From Bacillota bacterium (lineage in GTDB: Bacteria; Bacillota; Proteinivoracia; UBA4975), in NCBI GenBank assembly GCA_050949165.1, contig JBMNFF010000001.1, forward strand, positions 1,059,185 through 1,123,184: a DNA stretch of 64,000 bases, written 5' to 3'. Positions 13,881-58,316 of this stretch are shown here, one piece after another. The notes beneath the pieces are model-generated. The model searched no databases. It was not told the DNA's origin and saw only the letters and a program-made list of their open reading frames with translations. Position 1 is the stretch's first letter; each line of letters begins with the position of its first letter. The translations under genes and the position numbers were made by a program.

Positions 13881-15236
13881 TTATTCCCACTTTCTTCCCA
13901 ACTGCTCTTGAATTTCAATCTTGGCGTCCCTGATCAGAGACTGGGTGCCGACGATGACCACGGCGCCATCCTCCCCGGCACTCTCTACTGCCCGGGGCAG
14001 GGCAGACCCCATGCTATCGGCCACCCCGCTCTGGGAATTGTACTTATTGGCCTCGGCCAGCACGGCATCATCCCCGGGAAAGACCAGGTGCTTGTTGTTG
14101 GCCCGGGTCAGAATCAAGGAACTGGCCAGGGGCGCCAGGGTGCCGATAACGCCCCGCCAATCTTTGTCGGCCGGCACCCCGATTATCATATGCAAGGGCT
14201 TGCCGGTTTGCTGCAGCAATTCCCGCAGGTAACCTGCAGATTGAGCGTTGATGGCCCCGTCCAGGATGATCAGGGGGTCCCCCGGCAGCAGCTCACAGCG
14301 CCCCGGCCAGCGCACGGTGTCCAGACCGGCCTGGAGGAGCTCGTCGCTGCTGTCCGGGACGATCTCCTCGGCCAGGGCCAGGGCCACCCCCGCATTATAG
14401 GCCTGAAACGCCCCGGGCAGCGGCACGGTGAAGATGCCCTGCCGGCGCTGGGACCGGTAGCTGAACTTGCTGCCAGCCAGCCCCGTCTCCAGGACTTCCA
14501 CCTGAAAATCTTCGCCGGCCAATTTCAGGGGCACGCCAAAGCGCCGGCACATGGACTTGAGCAGGTCCACCACTTCCGGGGCCTGGTCATAGCTGACGCA
14601 CAGTTCCTGACCGGATTTGATGACGGCCATTTTATTGGCGGCGATGTCCAGCAGGGTAGGGCCCAAATTGCCCGGATGCTCCAGCATGATGGGGGTCAGG
14701 ACCGACCAGCGGTTGGCCATGACATTGACGTCGTCGGCCAGGGCGCCCCGCCCGCATTCCAGGACGTGAAAATCCGTGCCCTGCTCCCGGAACCACAAGA
14801 GGGCCACCGCCAGCACGGTGCCCACCGGCCCCATATAGTGGTCGGGAGGCATGGACCCGGTAATCTGTTCCACCTGGGGGCGGACCAGCTCGATGAGGCG
14901 GACCAGGTCCGGTTCGGGAATCTTATCCCCGTTGACGCGGATTCTTTCACAGAAGTCCACCAGATGGGGACCGGTGAAGAGGCCGACCCGGCGTCCCGCC
15001 GCCTGGAGCAACCGGGCCAGCATGACGCTGGTGGAGCCCTTGCCCTTGCTGCCGGCGATCAAAACCGACGGGGGCTGACTTCGGCTTAAACCCAGCTCCT
15101 CCAGGAGTTGGCGGCAGTATTCGGGATGCCTTTTGTGAACGTCCAATAAGTTGGGATCTATATGGGGTTGAGCTCTCACATACGACTGATAGATAAATTT
15201 AATTGCCTGGTACGAGTCCAACTGACTACCCCCCAA
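13881..15236 (-). CDS. folC: folylpolyglutamate synthase/dihydrofolate synthase family (Mur ligase fold)
   Basis: AGSKGKGST P-loop and DGAIN motif; start codon uncertain (no ATG near N-terminus, TTG at 15236 lacks clear RBS). Confidence 0.7.
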   Translation of the reverse strand: MGGSQLDSYQAIKFIYQSYVRAQPHIDPNLLDVHKRHPEYCRQLLEELGLSRSQPPSVLIAGSKGKGSTSVMLARLLQAAGRRVGLFTGPHLVDFCERIRVNGDKIPEPDLVRLIELVRPQVEQITGSMPPDHYMGPVGTVLAVALLWFREQGTDFHVLECGRGALADDVNVMANRWSVLTPIMLEHPGNLGPTLLDIAANKMAVIKSGQELCVSYDQAPEVVDLLKSMCRRFGVPLKLAGEDFQVEVLETGLAGSKFSYRSQRRQGIFTVPLPGAFQAYNAGVALALAEEIVPDSSDELLQAGLDTVRWPGRCELLPGDPLIILDGAINAQSAGYLRELLQQTGKPLHMIIGVPADKDWRGVIGTLAPLASSLILTRANNKHLVFPGDDAVLAEANKYNSQSGVADSMGSALPRAVESAGEDGAVVIVGTQSLIRDAKIEIQEQLGRKWE

Positions 15237-15349
15237 ACTGGAAGTCTGAGCCCGGAGTCACAAACTTCTCAATAGAATTCTCGGAACATCTGTCCTTTGC
15301 CTCAATGATAAAACAAAAGGGCCGGTAATACCAGCCCTTTGGCATGATT

Positions 15350-15874
15350 TCAAACCTGCGGCTCGATCAGGCCGTAGTTGCCGTCCTTGCGCCGGTAGAC
15401 GACATTGGCCTGGTTGGACTCGGCATTGGTAAACACGAAGAAGTCGTGTCCCAGCAGGTTCATCTGCAGCACTGCCTCGTCGGGAAGCATGGGCTTGATG
15501 GCAAAGCGCTTGGTCTTGACAATCCTCGGTTCGTCTTCATCCCAGATTCTGCCGTCTTCACCGGCAGCCAAGCCGGTTTGCCTAGCTTTGCGGTTGATTC
15601 TGGTCTTGTATTTGCGGATTTGGCGCTCCAGTTTCTCCACCACCAGGTCGATGGAGGCATACATGTCCGCCGATTCCTCTTCTGCCCTGATCAGCATTCC
15701 GCCATTGAGCAAGAGCATCGCCTCTACCACGTGGGATTCCTTGACCACACTGAGGGTGACCTGAGCTTCGGTGTTGGCATCAAAGTACTTGGCTATCTTC
15801 CCTATTTTCTTTTCCACATGAGCCCTGAGCGCGTCTGTTATTTCGATATTCTTACCCCGAGTAGTAATCCGCAT
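15350..15874 (-). CDS. hpf: ribosome hibernation-promoting factor (long form)
   Basis: MRITTRGKNIEITDALR start with AAAGGAG RBS; HPF N-domain plus C-terminal dimerisation domain. Confidence 0.9.
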   Translation of the reverse strand: MRITTRGKNIEITDALRAHVEKKIGKIAKYFDANTEAQVTLSVVKESHVVEAMLLLNGGMLIRAEEESADMYASIDLVVEKLERQIRKYKTRINRKARQTGLAAGEDGRIWDEDEPRIVKTKRFAIKPMLPDEAVLQMNLLGHDFFVFTNAESNQANVVYRRKDGNYGLIEPQV

Positions 15875-15973
15875 ACAACCAACTCCTTTCAGTGCTGTAC
15901 TATATTTATTCCCCAAATCCCCATGAAATCCTGCCAGTAAAAACTAAAATCCCGCCGAAGCGGGATGGTTAGT

Positions 15974-16171
15974 CTACAGTTTTACAACGTTTGCAGCTTG
16001 CAGGCCCTTGTCACTGTCCACCAAATCAAATTCGACAACGTCGCCTTCGTCAAGGGTTCTGTAACCTTCGCCTTGAATGGCGCTGTAGTGTACAAACACG
16101 TCGTCGCCATCCTCGCGCTGAATGAAACCCCAACCCTTTTTCTGATTAAACCACTTGACCTTTCCTTGCAC
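15974..16171 (-). CDS. cold-shock protein, CspA family
   Basis: 65 aa, GKVKWFN and GFGFI-like RNP motifs; GTG start with GGAGGT RBS. Confidence 0.9.
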
Positions 16172-16482
16172 TAAAACTTACCTCCAAAAATGATGTAGCT
16201 TGTAAAGCTCGATTCATCCTACCATAGTAAAAAGGCCAATGTCAATTTTACCGAAAAAACTGTCAATGAAGTCCGACAGCTGACCTGGTCTTTGCCCCCA
16301 CACTCGCCTGCTGGAGGGTTCGCGCTAACTACTGCCTCTCTCGGTTTTCCCGGCAGGACTTACTTCTAAGCCGCACCATGCTCGGCAGTTGGTTTTTTTT
16401 GCTGCCTTACGTGGGTCGTTTCGCCTGCGACTGGCCTCGACTTTCAACCACAGACCTGTCAGACATCATTAGAGTAACGTAT

Positions 16483-16734
16483 TCTGACCAAAATTGCAAA
16501 AGCAATTTTGGTCAGAATTGGGGACGGTCCTCAGCCCATTACCCCTTCCCACGGCAGGAGGCCCGTCCCATAAATTGCAAAAGCAATTTTGGTCAGAATT
16601 GGGGACGGTCCTCAGCCCATTACCCCTTCCCACGGCAGGAGGCCCGTCCCATAAATTGCAAAAGCAATTTTGGTCAGAATTAGGGACGGTCCTCAGCCCA
16701 TTACCCCTTCCCGCGGCAGGAGGCCCGCTCCCAT
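16483..16734. repeat. three tandem copies of an 81-bp unit, each containing a palindromic spacer and a GGGGACGG..CCGTCCC inverted repeat
   Basis: units at 16491-16571, 16572-16652, 16653-16733 (third copy with 3-4 substitutions); 34-bp palindrome TCTGACCAAAATTGC-AAAA-GCAATTTTGGTCAGA at 16483-16516. Confidence 0.9.
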
Positions 16735-16739
16735 CTCCA

Positions 16740-17390
16740 TCAGGCCGCCAGGGTCAGCACCAACACCCTCCTGGCCCCGGCTCTGATGAGGGCGCCGGCG
16801 CAGGCGTCGGCGGTAGCGCCGGTGGTAAAGACATCGTCCACCAGCCAGATATTTCCCGTCAGGTCTTGTCGGCGGGCATGGATATAATCCTCCAGACCCT
16901 GAAGGCGCTGGTGCCCGCTCAGAAATACCTGGGGCTGCCTGCCCGGCCGCCGGGCCAGAGCCCGGACCAGCGGTGCGCCGACATTCCTGGCCAGTTCCCG
17001 GGCCGTTAAGCCCACGGCGTCAAAATAGCGCCAGTGCTTCCCCGCCGCCGGCGCCGGCGTCACGGCCTGGGGCTTGGGAAAGCCGGCTTCCCCGGCCAGC
17101 CTGGCCAACTCCCGGGCCAGCTCCATCGTTACCCTCCGGTCCCGGGCAAACTTGGCGGCCTGGACCACCTTGCGCCAGGGCCCCAGATAATGGGCCAGGG
17201 AGAGCACCCGGCTATATCTGTGATCCAGGGGGGCGCAGGTGCGCCCCCCGCAGATTCGCCCACAGCGAATACAACCCCTGAGCCCGGTAAACTCCACCTG
17301 GGCCAGACATTGGGAGCAGAGGCCGAACTTCTCCCGGACATTCCGGCGACAATTCAAGCAGAGTGGCGGAAACAGGGCGTCCATCGCCAT
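16740..17390 (-). CDS. comFC: ComF-family protein (phosphoribosyltransferase domain, ComFC-like)
   Basis: N-terminal Cys-rich zinc finger (CLNC...CSQC...CIRCGR) and C-terminal PRTase motif VDDVFTTGAT. Confidence 0.7.
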   Translation of the reverse strand: MAMDALFPPLCLNCRRNVREKFGLCSQCLAQVEFTGLRGCIRCGRICGGRTCAPLDHRYSRVLSLAHYLGPWRKVVQAAKFARDRRVTMELARELARLAGEAGFPKPQAVTPAPAAGKHWRYFDAVGLTARELARNVGAPLVRALARRPGRQPQVFLSGHQRLQGLEDYIHARRQDLTGNIWLVDDVFTTGATADACAGALIRAGARRVLVLTLAA

Positions 17391-17457
17391 CACCCTTCCA
17401 CCTGATCTTTCGGAGGTAATTCTCCACCCGCCGCCGTCAATCCTGCCCCTGGCCAAA

Positions 17458-18330
17458 CTATTCCAGGTAGTCGGAAATCAGGACAAATTCATAGCCCCGG
17501 GCCCTGGCCTCATCGATAAATCGGGGCAGCACCTCCAGGGTAACCTGGGGACCGTCGTGAAAGAGGACGATGCACCCGGGCTTGAGCCCCGAGAGGGCCC
17601 TGTTCAGGACGATTTCCGGATCATCGTACTGCCAGTCCCGGGTGTCCACATTCCAGAGGACCAGCCGATAGCCCAGGGTCTCGGACACCTGGCGGACCTC
17701 TTCATTCCACTCGCCATAGGGTGGCCGCAGATAGGGCTGGGCCACCGCACCTGTGGCTGCCAAGGCCTGGGCGCTGTCGTCCACTTGGGCGATAATCTCC
17801 TCCCGCCCCAGCCCGGTGAGGTGGGGATGAGACCAAGTGTGGTTGGCAATCTCACAACCGGCCTCGACGATGGCCCGGACCAAGGCCGGCCGCTTTTGGG
17901 CATGGGAGCCCAGGAGAAAAAATGTAGCCGGCGCTTCCTTCTCCTCCAGGATGGCCAGCAACTTCCCCAGGGTGGACCTGGGACCATCGTCAAAGGTCAG
18001 GGCAATTACTTTGTCGTCGGTGGGCAGACTGCGGAAGACAACACTCCCCTCCCCGGTCCCTTGACCTTCTGCCTTCGCCTCTTCCTGCATTCCCTCGGCC
18101 GCGGGCAGCCGCCGGGGAGCGGGGATCCTCTCGTGATTCCACTGGGGATGCAAGATCACCATCACATCCCGAAGGCCGGGGGCGGTGCTTTTGGCAGCGG
18201 GCAGAGGTTGTCCGTCGGCCTTGACGGCCCTGCTCTCCATGGCAGCAAGGCCATGGGGATACAATAGCAGACAGACCAAGGCGATATTTGCCAGGAAGAA
18301 ACCCAAGTTAATCAGGAAATTTCTACCCAT
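17458..18330 (-). CDS. polysaccharide deacetylase family protein (NodB domain)
   Basis: TFDDGP and HTWSHP NodB motifs; start MGRNFL with AAAAGGGGGG RBS; N-terminal signal anchor. Confidence 0.8.
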   Translation of the reverse strand: MGRNFLINLGFFLANIALVCLLLYPHGLAAMESRAVKADGQPLPAAKSTAPGLRDVMVILHPQWNHERIPAPRRLPAAEGMQEEAKAEGQGTGEGSVVFRSLPTDDKVIALTFDDGPRSTLGKLLAILEEKEAPATFFLLGSHAQKRPALVRAIVEAGCEIANHTWSHPHLTGLGREEIIAQVDDSAQALAATGAVAQPYLRPPYGEWNEEVRQVSETLGYRLVLWNVDTRDWQYDDPEIVLNRALSGLKPGCIVLFHDGPQVTLEVLPRFIDEARARGYEFVLISDYLE

Positions 18331-18388: not shown

Positions 18389-18922
18389 TTACTCTTGGGC
18401 CAGGACGGCCCGGATCAAGTCGAGCATTTGGCGCAAGCTTGGATTCCCCTGCCGGGACAGCATCCCTCCGCGCTCCAGCTCCCGCAGGACCAGTTGAGCC
18501 CGGAGCAGGCGATTGCGCAGGCTGGCCACCGAGAGGGCGCATTCCACCACATTGCCTCCCTCTAATTCCACTCTGCTACCCTTGCCCTGGGGGTGAACAG
18601 CCCGGACAGCCAGCAAATTTAGATAACCCGTCCTCTCTCCGCATTTTCCCAGGGCCAGGGGAACCAGAACCATTTCTGAACTCAGGGGAAGGGGCAGGTA
18701 GTTGCGGCCATGGAGCAACCTGCTGCACCGCTGGCGCAGGGCCACCAGGTCCACTGCATAGTGCCGGGCCATGGCTTCCAAAATGGCCCGGTTGCGCCGG
18801 GGGTCGTACACGCGCTTTCCATCCAGCAGGAACAGCTCGCTGACCCGCCCCTGACCCTCCAGGCAGACAGAACGCATGGCGGTTAAGTTGGCGGCAAATA
18901 CAGGTGTGGGTATTTTCTGCAA
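18389..18922 (-). CDS. hypothetical protein
   Basis: 177-aa ORF, TTG start with AAGGAGGG RBS; no motif recognised by eye. Confidence 0.4.
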   Translation of the reverse strand: MQKIPTPVFAANLTAMRSVCLEGQGRVSELFLLDGKRVYDPRRNRAILEAMARHYAVDLVALRQRCSRLLHGRNYLPLPLSSEMVLVPLALGKCGERTGYLNLLAVRAVHPQGKGSRVELEGGNVVECALSVASLRNRLLRAQLVLRELERGGMLSRQGNPSLRQMLDLIRAVLAQE

Positions 18923-49036: not shown

Positions 49037-49068
49037 AATAATAAAGACCGCCGCAGCGGTCTTTATTA

Positions 49069-49563
49069 TTATTCAACAATCCTGAAGGCCTTGGCGCCTG
49101 CTCCGCAAATGGGGCACTTGTCCACCGGGGCCAGCTCGATATTGCCGCACACCGTACACAGGTGGAAGGTCAGTTCTTCTTGGGAATCCAGGTTATCCAA
49201 AAGCCTCTGGTAGAGGCCGGCGTGGACCCGCTCGGCTTCCATGGCAAATCTGAAGGAGCGGGCAGCTTCCTTTTCCCCGGCTTCTTCGGCACGCTTGACC
49301 ATGTCGGGGTACATGCTCTCGTATTCATAGGTCTCGCCGGCCACACCTTCCTTGAGGTTCTCGGCGGTGCTCCCAATTCCCTTCATGGCCCGCAGATGAG
49401 AATGGGCATGTATTGTCTCTGCCTCGGCGGCAGCCCGGAACATTTTGGCGGCGTTCTTATACCCCTCCTGCTCCGCCTTGGCAGCAAAAGCCAAGTACTT
49501 GCGGTTTGCCTGGGCCTCTCCGGCAAAGGCCTCCTTTAAGTTCTGCAAAGTCTTCTCATCCAT
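49069..49563 (-). CDS. rubrerythrin (ferritin-like diiron domain plus C-terminal rubredoxin-like CxxC...CxxC)
   Basis: ExxH diiron motifs and CTVCGN...CPICG; start at MDEKTL with AAGGAGG RBS. Confidence 0.85.
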   Translation of the reverse strand: MDEKTLQNLKEAFAGEAQANRKYLAFAAKAEQEGYKNAAKMFRAAAEAETIHAHSHLRAMKGIGSTAENLKEGVAGETYEYESMYPDMVKRAEEAGEKEAARSFRFAMEAERVHAGLYQRLLDNLDSQEELTFHLCTVCGNIELAPVDKCPICGAGAKAFRIVE

Positions 49564-57873: not shown

Positions 57874-57876
57874 AAC

Positions 57877-57908
57877 GCAAAAACCTGCGGGTGACCGCAG
57901 GTTTTTGC
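57877..57908. terminator. bidirectional intrinsic terminator
   Basis: gcaaaaacctgcgg-gtga-ccgcaggtttttgc, 14-bp perfect stem flanked by A-run and T-run. Confidence 0.8.
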
Positions 57909-58316
57909 GTGGGTGTTATTTGCGCTTATTTTCCGGATTATGAGTCCGGACCGGGGAAGCTGCCCGCTACAGGGCCCGGTCTGACGATCTCAGTGCATGG
58001 CGCCATTAGAGGCTGTCCGGACTTGATTCCTGTCACCCGAAACCAATCCCGACCCAAGCACCTGGGCTCCCGATCTGCTACGCCACAGCCGCGCATAAGC
58101 TGGCGACACAGCAATACCGGGTAACCCGTCCTCATCACCCCTGCTTCCAAAATAGTTTCATTTACTATGATGCCCTAAAATGGAAAAGAGTTCAACCCCC
58201 GGCAGGATTTTTTTTCTGCTCCCCGTACAATATTATACGCGGAAAACCCATAGTTTTCAGGGGTTGAAGGCCAAATATTTTATTTTTTTCTAAAGCATGA
58301 AGAGTTTAAATGGATA

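What the first reader, a model, noticed from the sequence alone, without database searches (positions are those of the whole stretch)
16483..16734. Three tandem 81-bp repeats with nested dyad symmetries immediately 3' of comF and upstream of the cold-shock gene promoter
Each unit has an AT-rich palindromic segment (full 34-bp palindrome only in copy 1) and a GC-rich GGGGACGG...CCGTCCC inverted repeat; copy 3 carries a few substitutions. Both overlapping plus-strand ORFs in the track are repeat artefacts. A tandem array of protein-binding-site-like palindromes could be a regulator binding array, a structured RNA, or a variable-number repeat.
Basis: seen in the sequence. Interest (0 to 1): 0.5.

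Follow-up and report, generated by a model that had tools for sequence, protein, structure and literature searches.

The report
Variable tandem repeat at raiA-RNA promoter

Summary
Window 16491-16734 carries three head-to-tail copies of an 81-bp unit: two identical, and the copy next to comF with 2 substitutions and 1 extra base. A perfect 17+4+17 palindrome lies at 16481-16518, and each unit has a GC-rich hairpin.

The context was misread. All genes are on the minus strand, and a raiA-motif (ModT) noncoding RNA gene (Rfam RF03072, 182 bits) lies at 16464-16271, between the array and the cold-shock gene. Relatives share a SigA-type promoter (TTGCAA, 17 nt, TAnnCT) ending 7 nt before this RNA. 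In the window its -35 box lies inside the repeat unit and the palindrome. Only the copy nearest raiA is followed by a -10 box.

Contigs of the same species, with flanks 99.8-100% identical, carry 1, 3 or 4 copies plus small variants. Many short-read contigs end inside the array. Five related species have a short unrepeated spacer. The closest species has the hairpin and a degenerate partial duplication, but no palindrome.

Best reading: a lineage-specific, hypervariable minisatellite made by an inverted duplication followed by tandem duplication of the comF-raiA spacer. It is probably near neutral and may tune raiA RNA transcription. It is a new member of a known kind (promoter-associated variable-number repeats). 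Interest is modest.

The parts
16740..17390 (-). comF (ComF-family protein, 216 aa from the ATG at 17390); stop codon TGA at 16742-16740
   Evidence: ORF list. Pfam DZR_2, E 9.5e-9. NCBIfam TIGR00201 comF, E 3.6e-21, below its curated cut-off. The exact 216-aa product is called in 8 public contigs.
16653..16734 (-). Repeat unit next to comF (82 nt on the minus strand: ATGGGAGCGGG...GCAATTT); one extra G and two substitutions relative to the other two units
16572..16652 (-). Middle repeat unit (81 nt), identical to the unit nearest raiA
16491..16571 (-). Repeat unit nearest raiA (81 nt). Its last 6 nt plus the flank form the raiA promoter -35 box. It is the only unit followed by the right-hand palindrome arm and a -10 box.
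16481..16518 (.). Perfect 38-bp palindrome ATTCTGACCAAAATTGC-TTTT-GCAATTTTGGTCAGAAT, spanning about -54 to -17 of the inferred raiA promoter. The two units further from raiA keep only 28 of the 38 bp (left arm, loop, 7 nt of the right arm).
   Evidence: DNA hairpin -18.7 kcal/mol, z = -11.6. Fourteen nt of the left arm are an insertion relative to L015 and are the reverse complement of the promoter's spacer sequence just downstream of the -35 box.
16521..16569 (-). GC-rich hairpin of the unit nearest raiA (12-bp stem with one G.A mismatch, 25-nt loop). The same hairpin occurs at 16602-16650 and, with a bulge, at 16683-16731.
   Evidence: Orthologous hairpins occur in L015 (one compensatory pair, same G.A mismatch) and in L018/L100.
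16471..16499 (-). Inferred SigA-type promoter of the raiA RNA: -35 TTGCAA (16499-16494), 17-nt spacer, -10 TACTCT (16476-16471), start near 16464
   Evidence: The same layout and the same distance to the RNA are seen in 10 related loci. C. difficile ModT has a single SigA promoter (PMC11706538). It scores 8 of 12 consensus matches, below the scanner's threshold of 9, so one search did not list it.
16271..16464 (-). raiA-motif (ModT) noncoding RNA gene
   Evidence: Rfam RF03072: 182.3 bits against a gathering score of 101.3, E 9.4e-48, full model 1-209
16258..16281 (-). Terminator-like hairpin plus T-run at the 3' end of the raiA RNA
16216..16245 (-). Cold-shock gene's own promoter: TTGACA, 18 nt, TG-extended TAGGAT
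   Evidence: 10 of 12 matches
15974..16171 (-). Cold-shock protein gene (65 aa)
   Evidence: Pfam CSD, E 1.5e-30
15350..15874 (-). hpf/raiA ribosome hibernation factor gene (174 aa)
   Evidence: Pfam Ribosomal_S30AE and Ribosom_S30AE_C

Best explanation
The array is a young, lineage-specific, copy-number-variable minisatellite in the spacer between comF and the raiA/ModT noncoding RNA gene.

**Inferred history.**
1. The ancestral spacer held a GC-rich hairpin just after the comF stop, followed directly by the raiA promoter.
2. A short quasi-palindrome (TGC-TTTT-GCA) at the -35 box was extended by a template-switch inverted duplication into a perfect palindrome with 17-nt arms.
3. An 81-bp segment (hairpin, left arm, loop, first 7 nt of the right arm) was duplicated in tandem. 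It now expands and contracts by slipped-strand mispairing or unequal recombination.

**Consequences.** Each unit carries a copy of the -35 hexamer and its AT-rich upstream DNA but no -10 box. There is therefore one working raiA promoter, at the end nearest raiA. The other units are promoter-less spacers. They move comF away from the promoter and add hairpins to any comF read-through RNA.

**Likely effect.** The copy-number changes are most likely nearly neutral. At most they modulate raiA RNA transcription, or its insulation from comF read-through.

**Shown:** the array, its polymorphism, its position relative to the RNA gene, and the conserved promoter layout.
**Inferred:** the transcription start, the mutational route, and the near-neutrality.
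For: - **Array and chance level:**
- **Copy number:** contigs encoding identical HPF, ComF and Csp proteins carry different numbers of units.
  - 1 unit: L001.
  - 3 units: the window, L002, L003 (a 1.1-Mb contig) and L005/L012.
  - 4 units: L006.
  - L010 has 3 units with a 9-bp deletion in the copy next to comF, and L002/L013 have a different version of that copy.
- **Flanks:** the 1.5 kb on each side is 99.8-100% identical in these contigs.
- **L001 is not a simple assembly collapse:** its junction TGGAG|ATGGGACGGG does not exist in the 3-copy alleles.
- **Short-read contigs end inside the array:** L007, L008, L013, L014, L177-L179, L181.
- **raiA RNA lies directly downstream**.
- **Promoter:** TTGCAA/TTGAAA/TTGCCN, 17 nt, TAnnNT sits at a fixed distance from the RNA in L015, L016, L018-L022, L099, L101, L185 and L191.
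- **Relatives lack the array:** five related species have unrepeated spacers of 29-81 nt with no palindrome.
- **Closest species (L015):** it shares the hairpin, lacks 14 nt of the left arm, and has its own degenerate 35-nt direct repeat (30 of 35 identical; 0 of 2000 shuffles score as high).
- **The copy next to comF tolerates damage to its hairpin:** a bulge, and a 9-bp deletion in L010.
- **No -10-like hexamer** follows the -35 copies in the two units further from raiA (read directly).
- **No match to plasmids or phages**. It is the only large tandem repeat in the window.
- **Literature:** template switching is documented to create and extend perfect inverted repeats (PMC5941160, PMC7202029, PMC13100816).
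Against: - No expression data exist, so an effect of copy number on raiA RNA level is neither shown nor excluded.
- Copy numbers come from metagenome assemblies, not single reads, and some could be mis-resolved. This applies especially to the 4-copy allele, whose identical stretch exceeds usual k-mer lengths, and to the 1-copy allele if all its units were identical.
- The palindrome covers the -35 box, where a repressor would bind.
- The hairpin is shared by three species, which hints that at least part of the unit has a function.
- Only 64 kb of the genome could be checked for dispersed copies.
Confidence: 0.65

Rival explanations
1. Copy-number-dependent tuning of the promoter, as in phase variation. 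Expansion and contraction of the array change raiA/ModT RNA output, so the population carries subclones with different levels of this abundant RNA. The changes could act through added AT-rich UP-like DNA and decoy -35 boxes, altered distance to comF, or more hairpins blocking read-through.
For: The array lies directly on the upstream half of the inferred promoter. Copy number differs between near-identical strains. Promoter tandem repeats with 54-58-bp units vary in copy number in M. tuberculosis, and a second lpdA promoter copy raised biofilm formation (PMC12817950). The RNA affects sporulation, aggregation and growth in clostridia (PMC10861870, PMC11706538).
Against: Unlike the mycobacterial cases, the unit holds no -10 box or start site, so copies cannot add promoters. 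The array is absent from five related species with the same promoter. No expression data exist. High variability is expected from the mutation rate of an 81-bp perfect repeat alone.
Confidence: 0.2
2. Array of operators for a transcription factor. A dimeric regulator binds the 38-bp palindrome over the -35 box and represses raiA. The partial palindromes in the other two units (28 of 38 bp, each including a perfect 7+4+7 inner palindrome) recruit more dimers for cooperative repression or looping.
For: A perfect dyad is centred at about -35.5 and covers the -35 box and spacer. Each unit repeats most of it.
Against: The left arm is missing in the closest species, and no palindrome occurs at the same promoter in ten related loci. 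Seventeen perfect pairs per arm is far more than an operator needs, and is what a copying event produces. The 81-bp period is 7.7 helical turns, so successive sites face different sides. No further site with up to 3 mismatches lies in the 64 kb apart from one chance-level hit. No regulator gene is adjacent.
Confidence: 0.08
3. Repeated RNA element in the comF 3' untranslated region. The array is transcribed from comF, and its GC hairpins (plus the 17-bp hairpin nearest raiA) end, stabilise or process the comF transcript and shield raiA from read-through. More copies give stronger insulation.
For: The hairpin starts 2-10 nt after the comF stop in the window, L015 and L018/L100. It shows one compensatory pair and a conserved G.A mismatch between the window and L015. 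The whole array folds well below shuffled controls (-127.8 kcal/mol, z = -6.6).
Against: No U-tract follows any stem, and the terminator scan finds nothing in the array. Strong folding is expected for any sequence made of repeated palindromes. A single unit has z of only -1.75. Most relatives have no hairpin. The copy next to comF tolerates a bulge and loss of one arm. No Rfam family matches, apart from chance microRNA-like hits to the palindrome.
Confidence: 0.1
4. Supercoiling switch. The AT-rich perfect palindrome over the -35 box extrudes as a cruciform when DNA is highly negatively supercoiled, inactivating the promoter. It re-forms duplex DNA when supercoiling relaxes near stationary phase, which is when raiA RNA peaks in C. 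acetobutylicum.
For: Perfect 17-bp arms, a 4-nt loop, AT-rich sequence, and a hairpin energy of -18.7 kcal/mol per strand. The RNA peaks near stationary phase (PMC10861870). Cruciform-regulated artificial promoters in E. coli are known to me from the literature; I did not check this here.
Against: Extrusion of palindromes this short is rare in living cells. The feature is confined to one species. Nothing here tests it.
Confidence: 0.03
5. Assembly artefact, or a protein-coding 27-codon repeat.
For: 81 is a multiple of 3, and ORFs cross the array on both strands. Tandem repeats are hard for assemblers.
Against: The same 3-copy structure appears in independent assemblies from JGI, NCBI and ENA, including a 1.1-Mb contig. 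The ORFs have no family match, overlap the raiA RNA or comF in antisense, and are not preserved in L015. The copy next to comF carries a 1-nt indel.
Confidence: 0.02

Closest known systems
Promoter tandem repeats with copy-number variation in Mycobacterium tuberculosis (the dop, lpdA-glpD2 and cysG-efpA loci, which are MIRU-VNTR loci; PMC12817950)
   Same: Units of tens of bp (54-58 bp there, 81 bp here) repeated head to tail immediately upstream of a gene. Copy number differs between very closely related strains. Short-read assemblies obscure the variation.
   Different: In M. tuberculosis the whole promoter is repeated, so copies add transcription, and the targets are protein genes. Here the unit carries only the -35 box and upstream DNA, the target is a structured noncoding RNA, the host is an uncultured Bacillota bacterium found in anaerobic-digester metagenomes, and no effect on expression is known.
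Bacterial variable-number tandem repeats (minisatellites) used as strain-typing markers
   Same: A single-locus, intergenic, head-to-tail repeat whose copy number is polymorphic while the flanks are conserved.
   Different: None in kind. This locus is notable only for where it sits and for containing a perfect palindrome.
Quasi-palindrome template-switch mutations and expansion of inverted repeats (PMC5941160, PMC7202029, PMC13100816)
   Same: A short imperfect inverted repeat seen in the sister species corresponds here to a perfect, much longer one. The added 14 nt are the exact reverse complement of the neighbouring promoter sequence.
   Different: This is inferred from a two-species comparison, not observed as an event. 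Here the new palindrome was then captured in a tandem duplication.
raiA motif / ModT noncoding RNA locus (Rfam RF03072; PMC10861870, PMC11706538)
   Same: The neighbouring gene is a full-length member, in the usual position between comFC and hpf/raiA, with a SigA-type promoter of its own as in C. difficile.
   Different: The two raiA/ModT papers I consulted, in the passages retrieved by keyword, do not mention a repeat array or palindrome at this promoter. A cold-shock gene lies between the RNA and hpf.
Dispersed palindromic elements (REP/BIME, MITEs, MIRU as an interspersed family)
   Same: A GC-rich imperfect hairpin in an intergenic region just after a stop codon.
   Different: No other copy in 64 kb, in 195 fetched loci outside this spacer, or in plasmid and phage collections. 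The hairpin is orthologous and positionally fixed in related species, not mobile.

Membership tests
Variable-number tandem repeat (minisatellite) | Head-to-tail direct repeats with a unit of roughly 10-100 bp | tested here: met
   Period 81, 3.0 copies, 98% matches; copies in register
Variable-number tandem repeat (minisatellite) | Copy number differs between closely related genomes while the flanks are conserved | tested here: met
   1, 3 and 4 copies, with flanks 99.8-100% identical over 1.5 kb on each side. Caveat: these are assemblies, not single reads.
Variable-number tandem repeat (minisatellite) | Confined to one locus rather than dispersed | tested here: inconclusive
   No other copy in the 64-kb window or in fetched loci outside this spacer. 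The rest of the genome could not be scanned.
Promoter tandem repeat (M. tuberculosis type, PMC12817950) | Array lies immediately upstream of, or within, a promoter | tested here: met
   The unit ends inside the -35 box of the promoter inferred from 10 related loci. The start site is not mapped experimentally.
Promoter tandem repeat (M. tuberculosis type, PMC12817950) | Each unit contains a complete promoter, so copies add transcription starts | tested here: not met
   The -35 copies in the two units further from raiA are followed at 16-18 nt by CCTGCC, CTGCCG or TGCCGT, none resembling a -10 box. The scanner finds no promoter in the array.
Promoter tandem repeat (M. tuberculosis type, PMC12817950) | Copy number changes expression of the downstream gene | not testable with these tools
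   Needs RNA measurements or reporter fusions
raiA motif RNA (RF03072), for the adjacent gene | Covariance-model score above the curated threshold, over the full model | tested here: met
   182.3 bits against 101.3, model positions 1-209, at 16464-16271 on the minus strand. The array lies outside the model.
Transcription-factor operator array | Dyad site conserved at the orthologous promoter, or repeated at other promoters of the genome | tested here: not met
   Absent from ten related loci. No further site in the 64 kb. A genome-wide test was not possible.
Intrinsic terminator | GC-rich stem followed directly by a U-run | tested here: not met
   No terminator-like site inside 16481-16739. The stems are followed by CAAUUCUGA or ACGUUACU.
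Dispersed palindromic or miniature mobile elements (REP, MITE, MIRU family) | Many copies at unrelated loci | tested here: inconclusive
   None found in the window, fetched loci, plasmids or phages. The whole genome was not available.
CRISPR array / plasmid iterons | Repeats separated by unique spacers (CRISPR), or 17-22-bp repeats beside a replication gene (iterons) | tested here: not met
   The units abut with no spacers. The neighbours are comF, the raiA RNA, csp and hpf.

The most novel reading that the evidence does not exclude
The array is a natural, fast-switching dial on the promoter of the raiA/ModT RNA. Strains or subclones with 1 to 4 units would make different amounts of this abundant, still unexplained structured RNA. 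That would give population heterogeneity in the stationary-phase and sporulation-related traits the RNA affects. It would be the first promoter-repeat phase variation reported for a conserved housekeeping-like noncoding RNA, and it would work through partial promoter copies (-35 and upstream DNA only).
Probability: 0.15. Interest if true: 0.55.

Novelty: new member of a known kind. Interest (0 to 1): 0.3.

Why it matters
[quoted passage not shown] A naturally copy-number-variable repeat on the upstream half of its promoter offers ready-made allelic variants (1, 3 and 4 units, and with or without the palindrome's left arm across species). These could be used to ask how the RNA's level is set and what changes when it varies.

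The locus also gives a clean example of two mutational processes acting in sequence at a promoter: inverted duplication by template switching, then tandem duplication.

Practically, this repeat breaks short-read metagenome assemblies exactly at the comF-raiA junction. That can hide the synteny used to study this RNA. Beyond this, the locus is an ordinary minisatellite.

Tried and rejected
- **Known RNA family.** The Rfam scan at permissive E-values over 15000-18000 gave only chance microRNA-like hits to the palindrome (E about 0.1).
- **Coding repeat.** The three ORFs crossing the array have no Pfam match above threshold.
- **Terminator.** No terminator-like site lies in the array.
- **Mobile or dispersed element.** No other copy in the window, none in the plasmid or phage collections, and none outside this spacer in 195 fetched loci.
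- **Other operator sites.** Apart from the array itself, only one match to the 15-nt half-site turned up, with 3 mismatches and at chance level.
- **Known operator consensuses.** By eye I compared the palindrome with the CodY, CcpA cre, Rex, LexA, Spo0A, SigH and ComK box consensuses recalled from memory. None fits; the best is about 10 of 15 to the CodY box. I did not pursue this.
- **ComK idea.** The conserved 177-aa neighbour has no family match, so it is unsupported.
- **Exact-protein look-up with the longest comF ORF.** It failed because the TTG start is not the one gene callers use. The ATG at 17390 worked.
- **Metagenome scan with HPF.** It returned no contig of the same species, only relatives at 87% identity or less. 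Copy-number data therefore come only from the exact-protein look-ups.
- **Tandem Repeats Finder on L015.** It found nothing. The degenerate repeat there was shown by local alignment instead.
- **L017.** It has a 223-N scaffold gap exactly where the spacer meets raiA, so it is uninformative.

Full report

Yes. Tandem Repeats Finder reports one array at 16491-16734 with period 81, 3.0 copies, 98% matches and score 465. The repeat finder puts the copies in register at 16491-16571, 16572-16652 (identical) and 16653-16733.

Neither the AT-rich half nor the GC-rich half of the unit occurs anywhere else in the 64-kb window, and no shuffle produces a match. It is the only sizeable tandem repeat in the window.

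The palindrome is perfect, with arms 16481-16497 and 16502-16518 (17/17) and a 4-nt loop. It is the longest perfect hairpin-type inverted repeat in the window. Each unit also has a 12-bp GC-rich stem with one mismatch and a 25-nt loop.

**2. What surrounds it?**

All local genes are on the minus strand. Reading that strand, the order is:
- comF, with stop TGA at 16742-16740;
- 5 nt of spacer (TGGAG);
- three repeat units at 16734-16653 (82 nt), 16652-16572 and 16571-16491;
- a raiA-motif RNA gene at 16464-16271 (Rfam RF03072, 182.3 bits against a threshold of 101.3, full length);
- a terminator-like hairpin at 16281-16258;
- the cold-shock gene's own promoter at 16245-16216;
- csp at 16171-15974;
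- hpf/raiA at 15874-15350.

This is the usual position of the raiA RNA gene, downstream of comFC in 74% of cases and upstream of raiA in 66% (PMC10861870).

**3. The promoter.**

I collected related loci through the HPF protein and located the raiA RNA in them. In L015, L016, L018-L022, L099, L101, L185 and L191 the RNA is preceded at a fixed distance by TTGCAA (or TTGAAA, TTGCTT, TTGCCN), 17 nt, then TAnnNT, mostly TAnnCT.

The window has TTGCAA (16499-16494), 17 nt, TACTCT (16476-16471), with the RNA model starting 7 nt later at 16464. C. difficile ModT is transcribed from a single SigA promoter (PMC11706538).

The -35 box therefore lies inside the repeat unit, which ends ...TTGCAATTT, and inside the palindrome, which spans about -54 to -17. 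The -35 copies in the other two units are followed by GC-rich hairpin sequence, not by a -10 box. There is one complete promoter. The start site is inferred, not mapped.

**4. Copy-number variation.**

Exact-protein look-ups for HPF, ComF and Csp returned independent contigs of the same species. Parsing the spacer gave these alleles:

| Units | Contigs | Notes |
|---|---|---|
| 1 | L001 | Junction differs from the 3-copy alleles |
| 3 | window, L003 (1.1-Mb contig), L005/L012 (GCA_964472835.1) | Same sequence as the window |
| 3 | L002/L011 | The copy next to comF lacks two of the window's substitutions |
| 3 | L010 | 9-bp deletion removes one hairpin arm of the copy next to comF |
| 3 | L004 | Low-coverage, indel-ridden assembly |
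| 4 | L006 | Identical stretch exceeds usual k-mer lengths |

The 1.5 kb on either side is 99.8-100% identical among these contigs, so the array changes much faster than its flanks.

L001's junction TGGAG|ATGGGACGGG does not occur in the 3-copy alleles, so it is not a simple collapse of them. A collapse of an array of fully identical units cannot be excluded.

Many short-read contigs stop inside the array (L007, L008, L013, L014, L177-L179, L181). That is what a repeat does to such assemblers. The samples named in the records are anaerobic-digester metagenomes (this species) and fermentation metagenomes (a relative).

**5. History from relatives.**

Five related species (HPF 78-87% identical) have an unrepeated spacer of 29-81 nt with neither hairpin nor palindrome.

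The closest species, L015 (HPF 91%, flanking DNA 83%), has the orthologous GC hairpin GGGGACAG...CTGTCCCC. Relative to the window's GGGACGG...CCGTCCC it shows one compensatory pair and the same G.A mismatch. It is followed almost directly by the -35 box. L018/L100 have a similar hairpin.

L015 lacks 14 nt of the window's left palindrome arm. Those 14 nt are the exact reverse complement of the promoter's spacer sequence just downstream of the -35 box. L015 has only a 3-bp quasi-palindrome, TGC-TTTT-GCA. This is the signature of a template-switch inverted duplication, a documented route to perfect and enlarged inverted repeats (PMC5941160, PMC7202029, PMC13100816).

The 81-bp unit contains the left arm, the loop and 7 nt of the right arm, so the tandem duplication came after the palindrome.

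L015 independently carries a degenerate 35-nt direct repeat of the left half of the hairpin (30 of 35 identical; 0 of 2000 shuffles as good). This spacer therefore seems prone to duplication.

**6. Mechanism.**

The best-supported account is a young, lineage-specific minisatellite that expands and contracts by slippage or unequal recombination. Only the unit nearest raiA contributes to a working promoter.

Four observations argue against a selected binding array:
- The palindrome is species-specific and more perfect than an operator requires.
- The period is 7.7 helical turns.
- No other site lies in the 64 kb.
- The hairpin of the copy next to comF tolerates a bulge and the loss of an arm.

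An RNA role is plausible only for the ancestral hairpin, as a comF 3'-end structure. It is not a canonical terminator.

The whole array folds far better than shuffled controls (z = -6.6). This is expected for repeated palindromes, and a single unit gives z of only -1.75.

A modulatory effect of copy number on raiA transcription remains possible, and I give it about 0.2. The nearest precedent is the promoter tandem repeats of M. tuberculosis, with 54-58-bp units, copy number variable between and within strains, and effects on expression (PMC12817950). There, whole promoters are repeated. Here that defining feature was tested and is not met.

**7. Comparison and novelty.**

The locus meets the definition of a variable-number tandem repeat. 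It resembles, but is not a full member of, the mycobacterial promoter-repeat class. It is not a dispersed element, a CRISPR array, a set of iterons, a terminator or a known RNA family.

The two raiA/ModT papers I consulted, in the passages retrieved by keyword, do not mention a repeat or palindrome at this promoter.

I rate it a new member of a known kind. Interest is modest (0.3), and comes mainly from the gene it touches.

**8. Limits.**
- No expression or binding data are available.
- Copy numbers come from assemblies, not single reads.

Noticed in passing
window 16271-16464 (-): Full-length raiA-motif (ModT) noncoding RNA gene (RF03072, 182 bits) between comF and csp.
   Followed up: yes
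L192 1584-1704; L193; L194; L195 1-425: In a related species (HPF 85% identical), three contigs have only 119 nt between comF and csp and no raiA RNA. A fourth contig, L195, encodes the same HPF protein and has a raiA-like RNA upstream of csp (recognised by eye from conserved raiA sequence, not scanned with Rfam), with different sequence before it. The RNA gene appears to be present or absent, or relocated, among close relatives.
   Followed up: partly
L017 842-1064: The relative UBA5496 has a 223-N scaffold gap that starts right after a duplicated AGGTYCGTYCCC motif downstream of comF and ends inside raiA. An unassembled repeat could lie at the same spot as in the window.
   Followed up: no
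L009, L180, L183, L184 (contig starts): Several short-read contigs of the same species begin inside the 3' half of the raiA RNA (GCGAGTGTGGGGGCAAAGACC...). This is probably because that stretch is identical in co-occurring species and splits the assembly graph.
   Followed up: no
window 15946-16255 (-): Weak match to the enterobacterial cspA thermoregulator model (33 bits against a threshold of 78), running from the csp leader through the coding region to just past the stop codon. It is probably driven by coding-sequence similarity and is not evidence of a thermosensor.
   Followed up: no
window 57875-57910 and 49037-49070: Two more perfect hairpin palindromes (16-nt and 15-nt arms, 4-nt loops), A/T-flanked and GC-cored. 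They look like bidirectional terminators.
   Followed up: no
window 16521-16569 and the same segment of each unit (-): On the minus strand each unit has five runs of three or more G within about 35 nt (GGGACGGG...GGGAAGGGGTAATGGG), a possible G-quadruplex-forming stretch. It is not conserved in L015.
   Followed up: no
window 18389-18922 (-): A conserved 177-aa protein with no Pfam or NCBIfam match lies between the small DUF1659/DUF2922 genes and a sporulation-type polysaccharide deacetylase. The same order is kept in all same-species contigs.
   Followed up: partly
window 16735-16742 (-): The comF stop overlaps an ATG (TGATG) that opens a 15-codon ORF ending inside the first hairpin. This recalls the stop/start overlaps described for mycobacterial MIRU units (from memory). 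No ribosome-binding site is evident.
   Followed up: no
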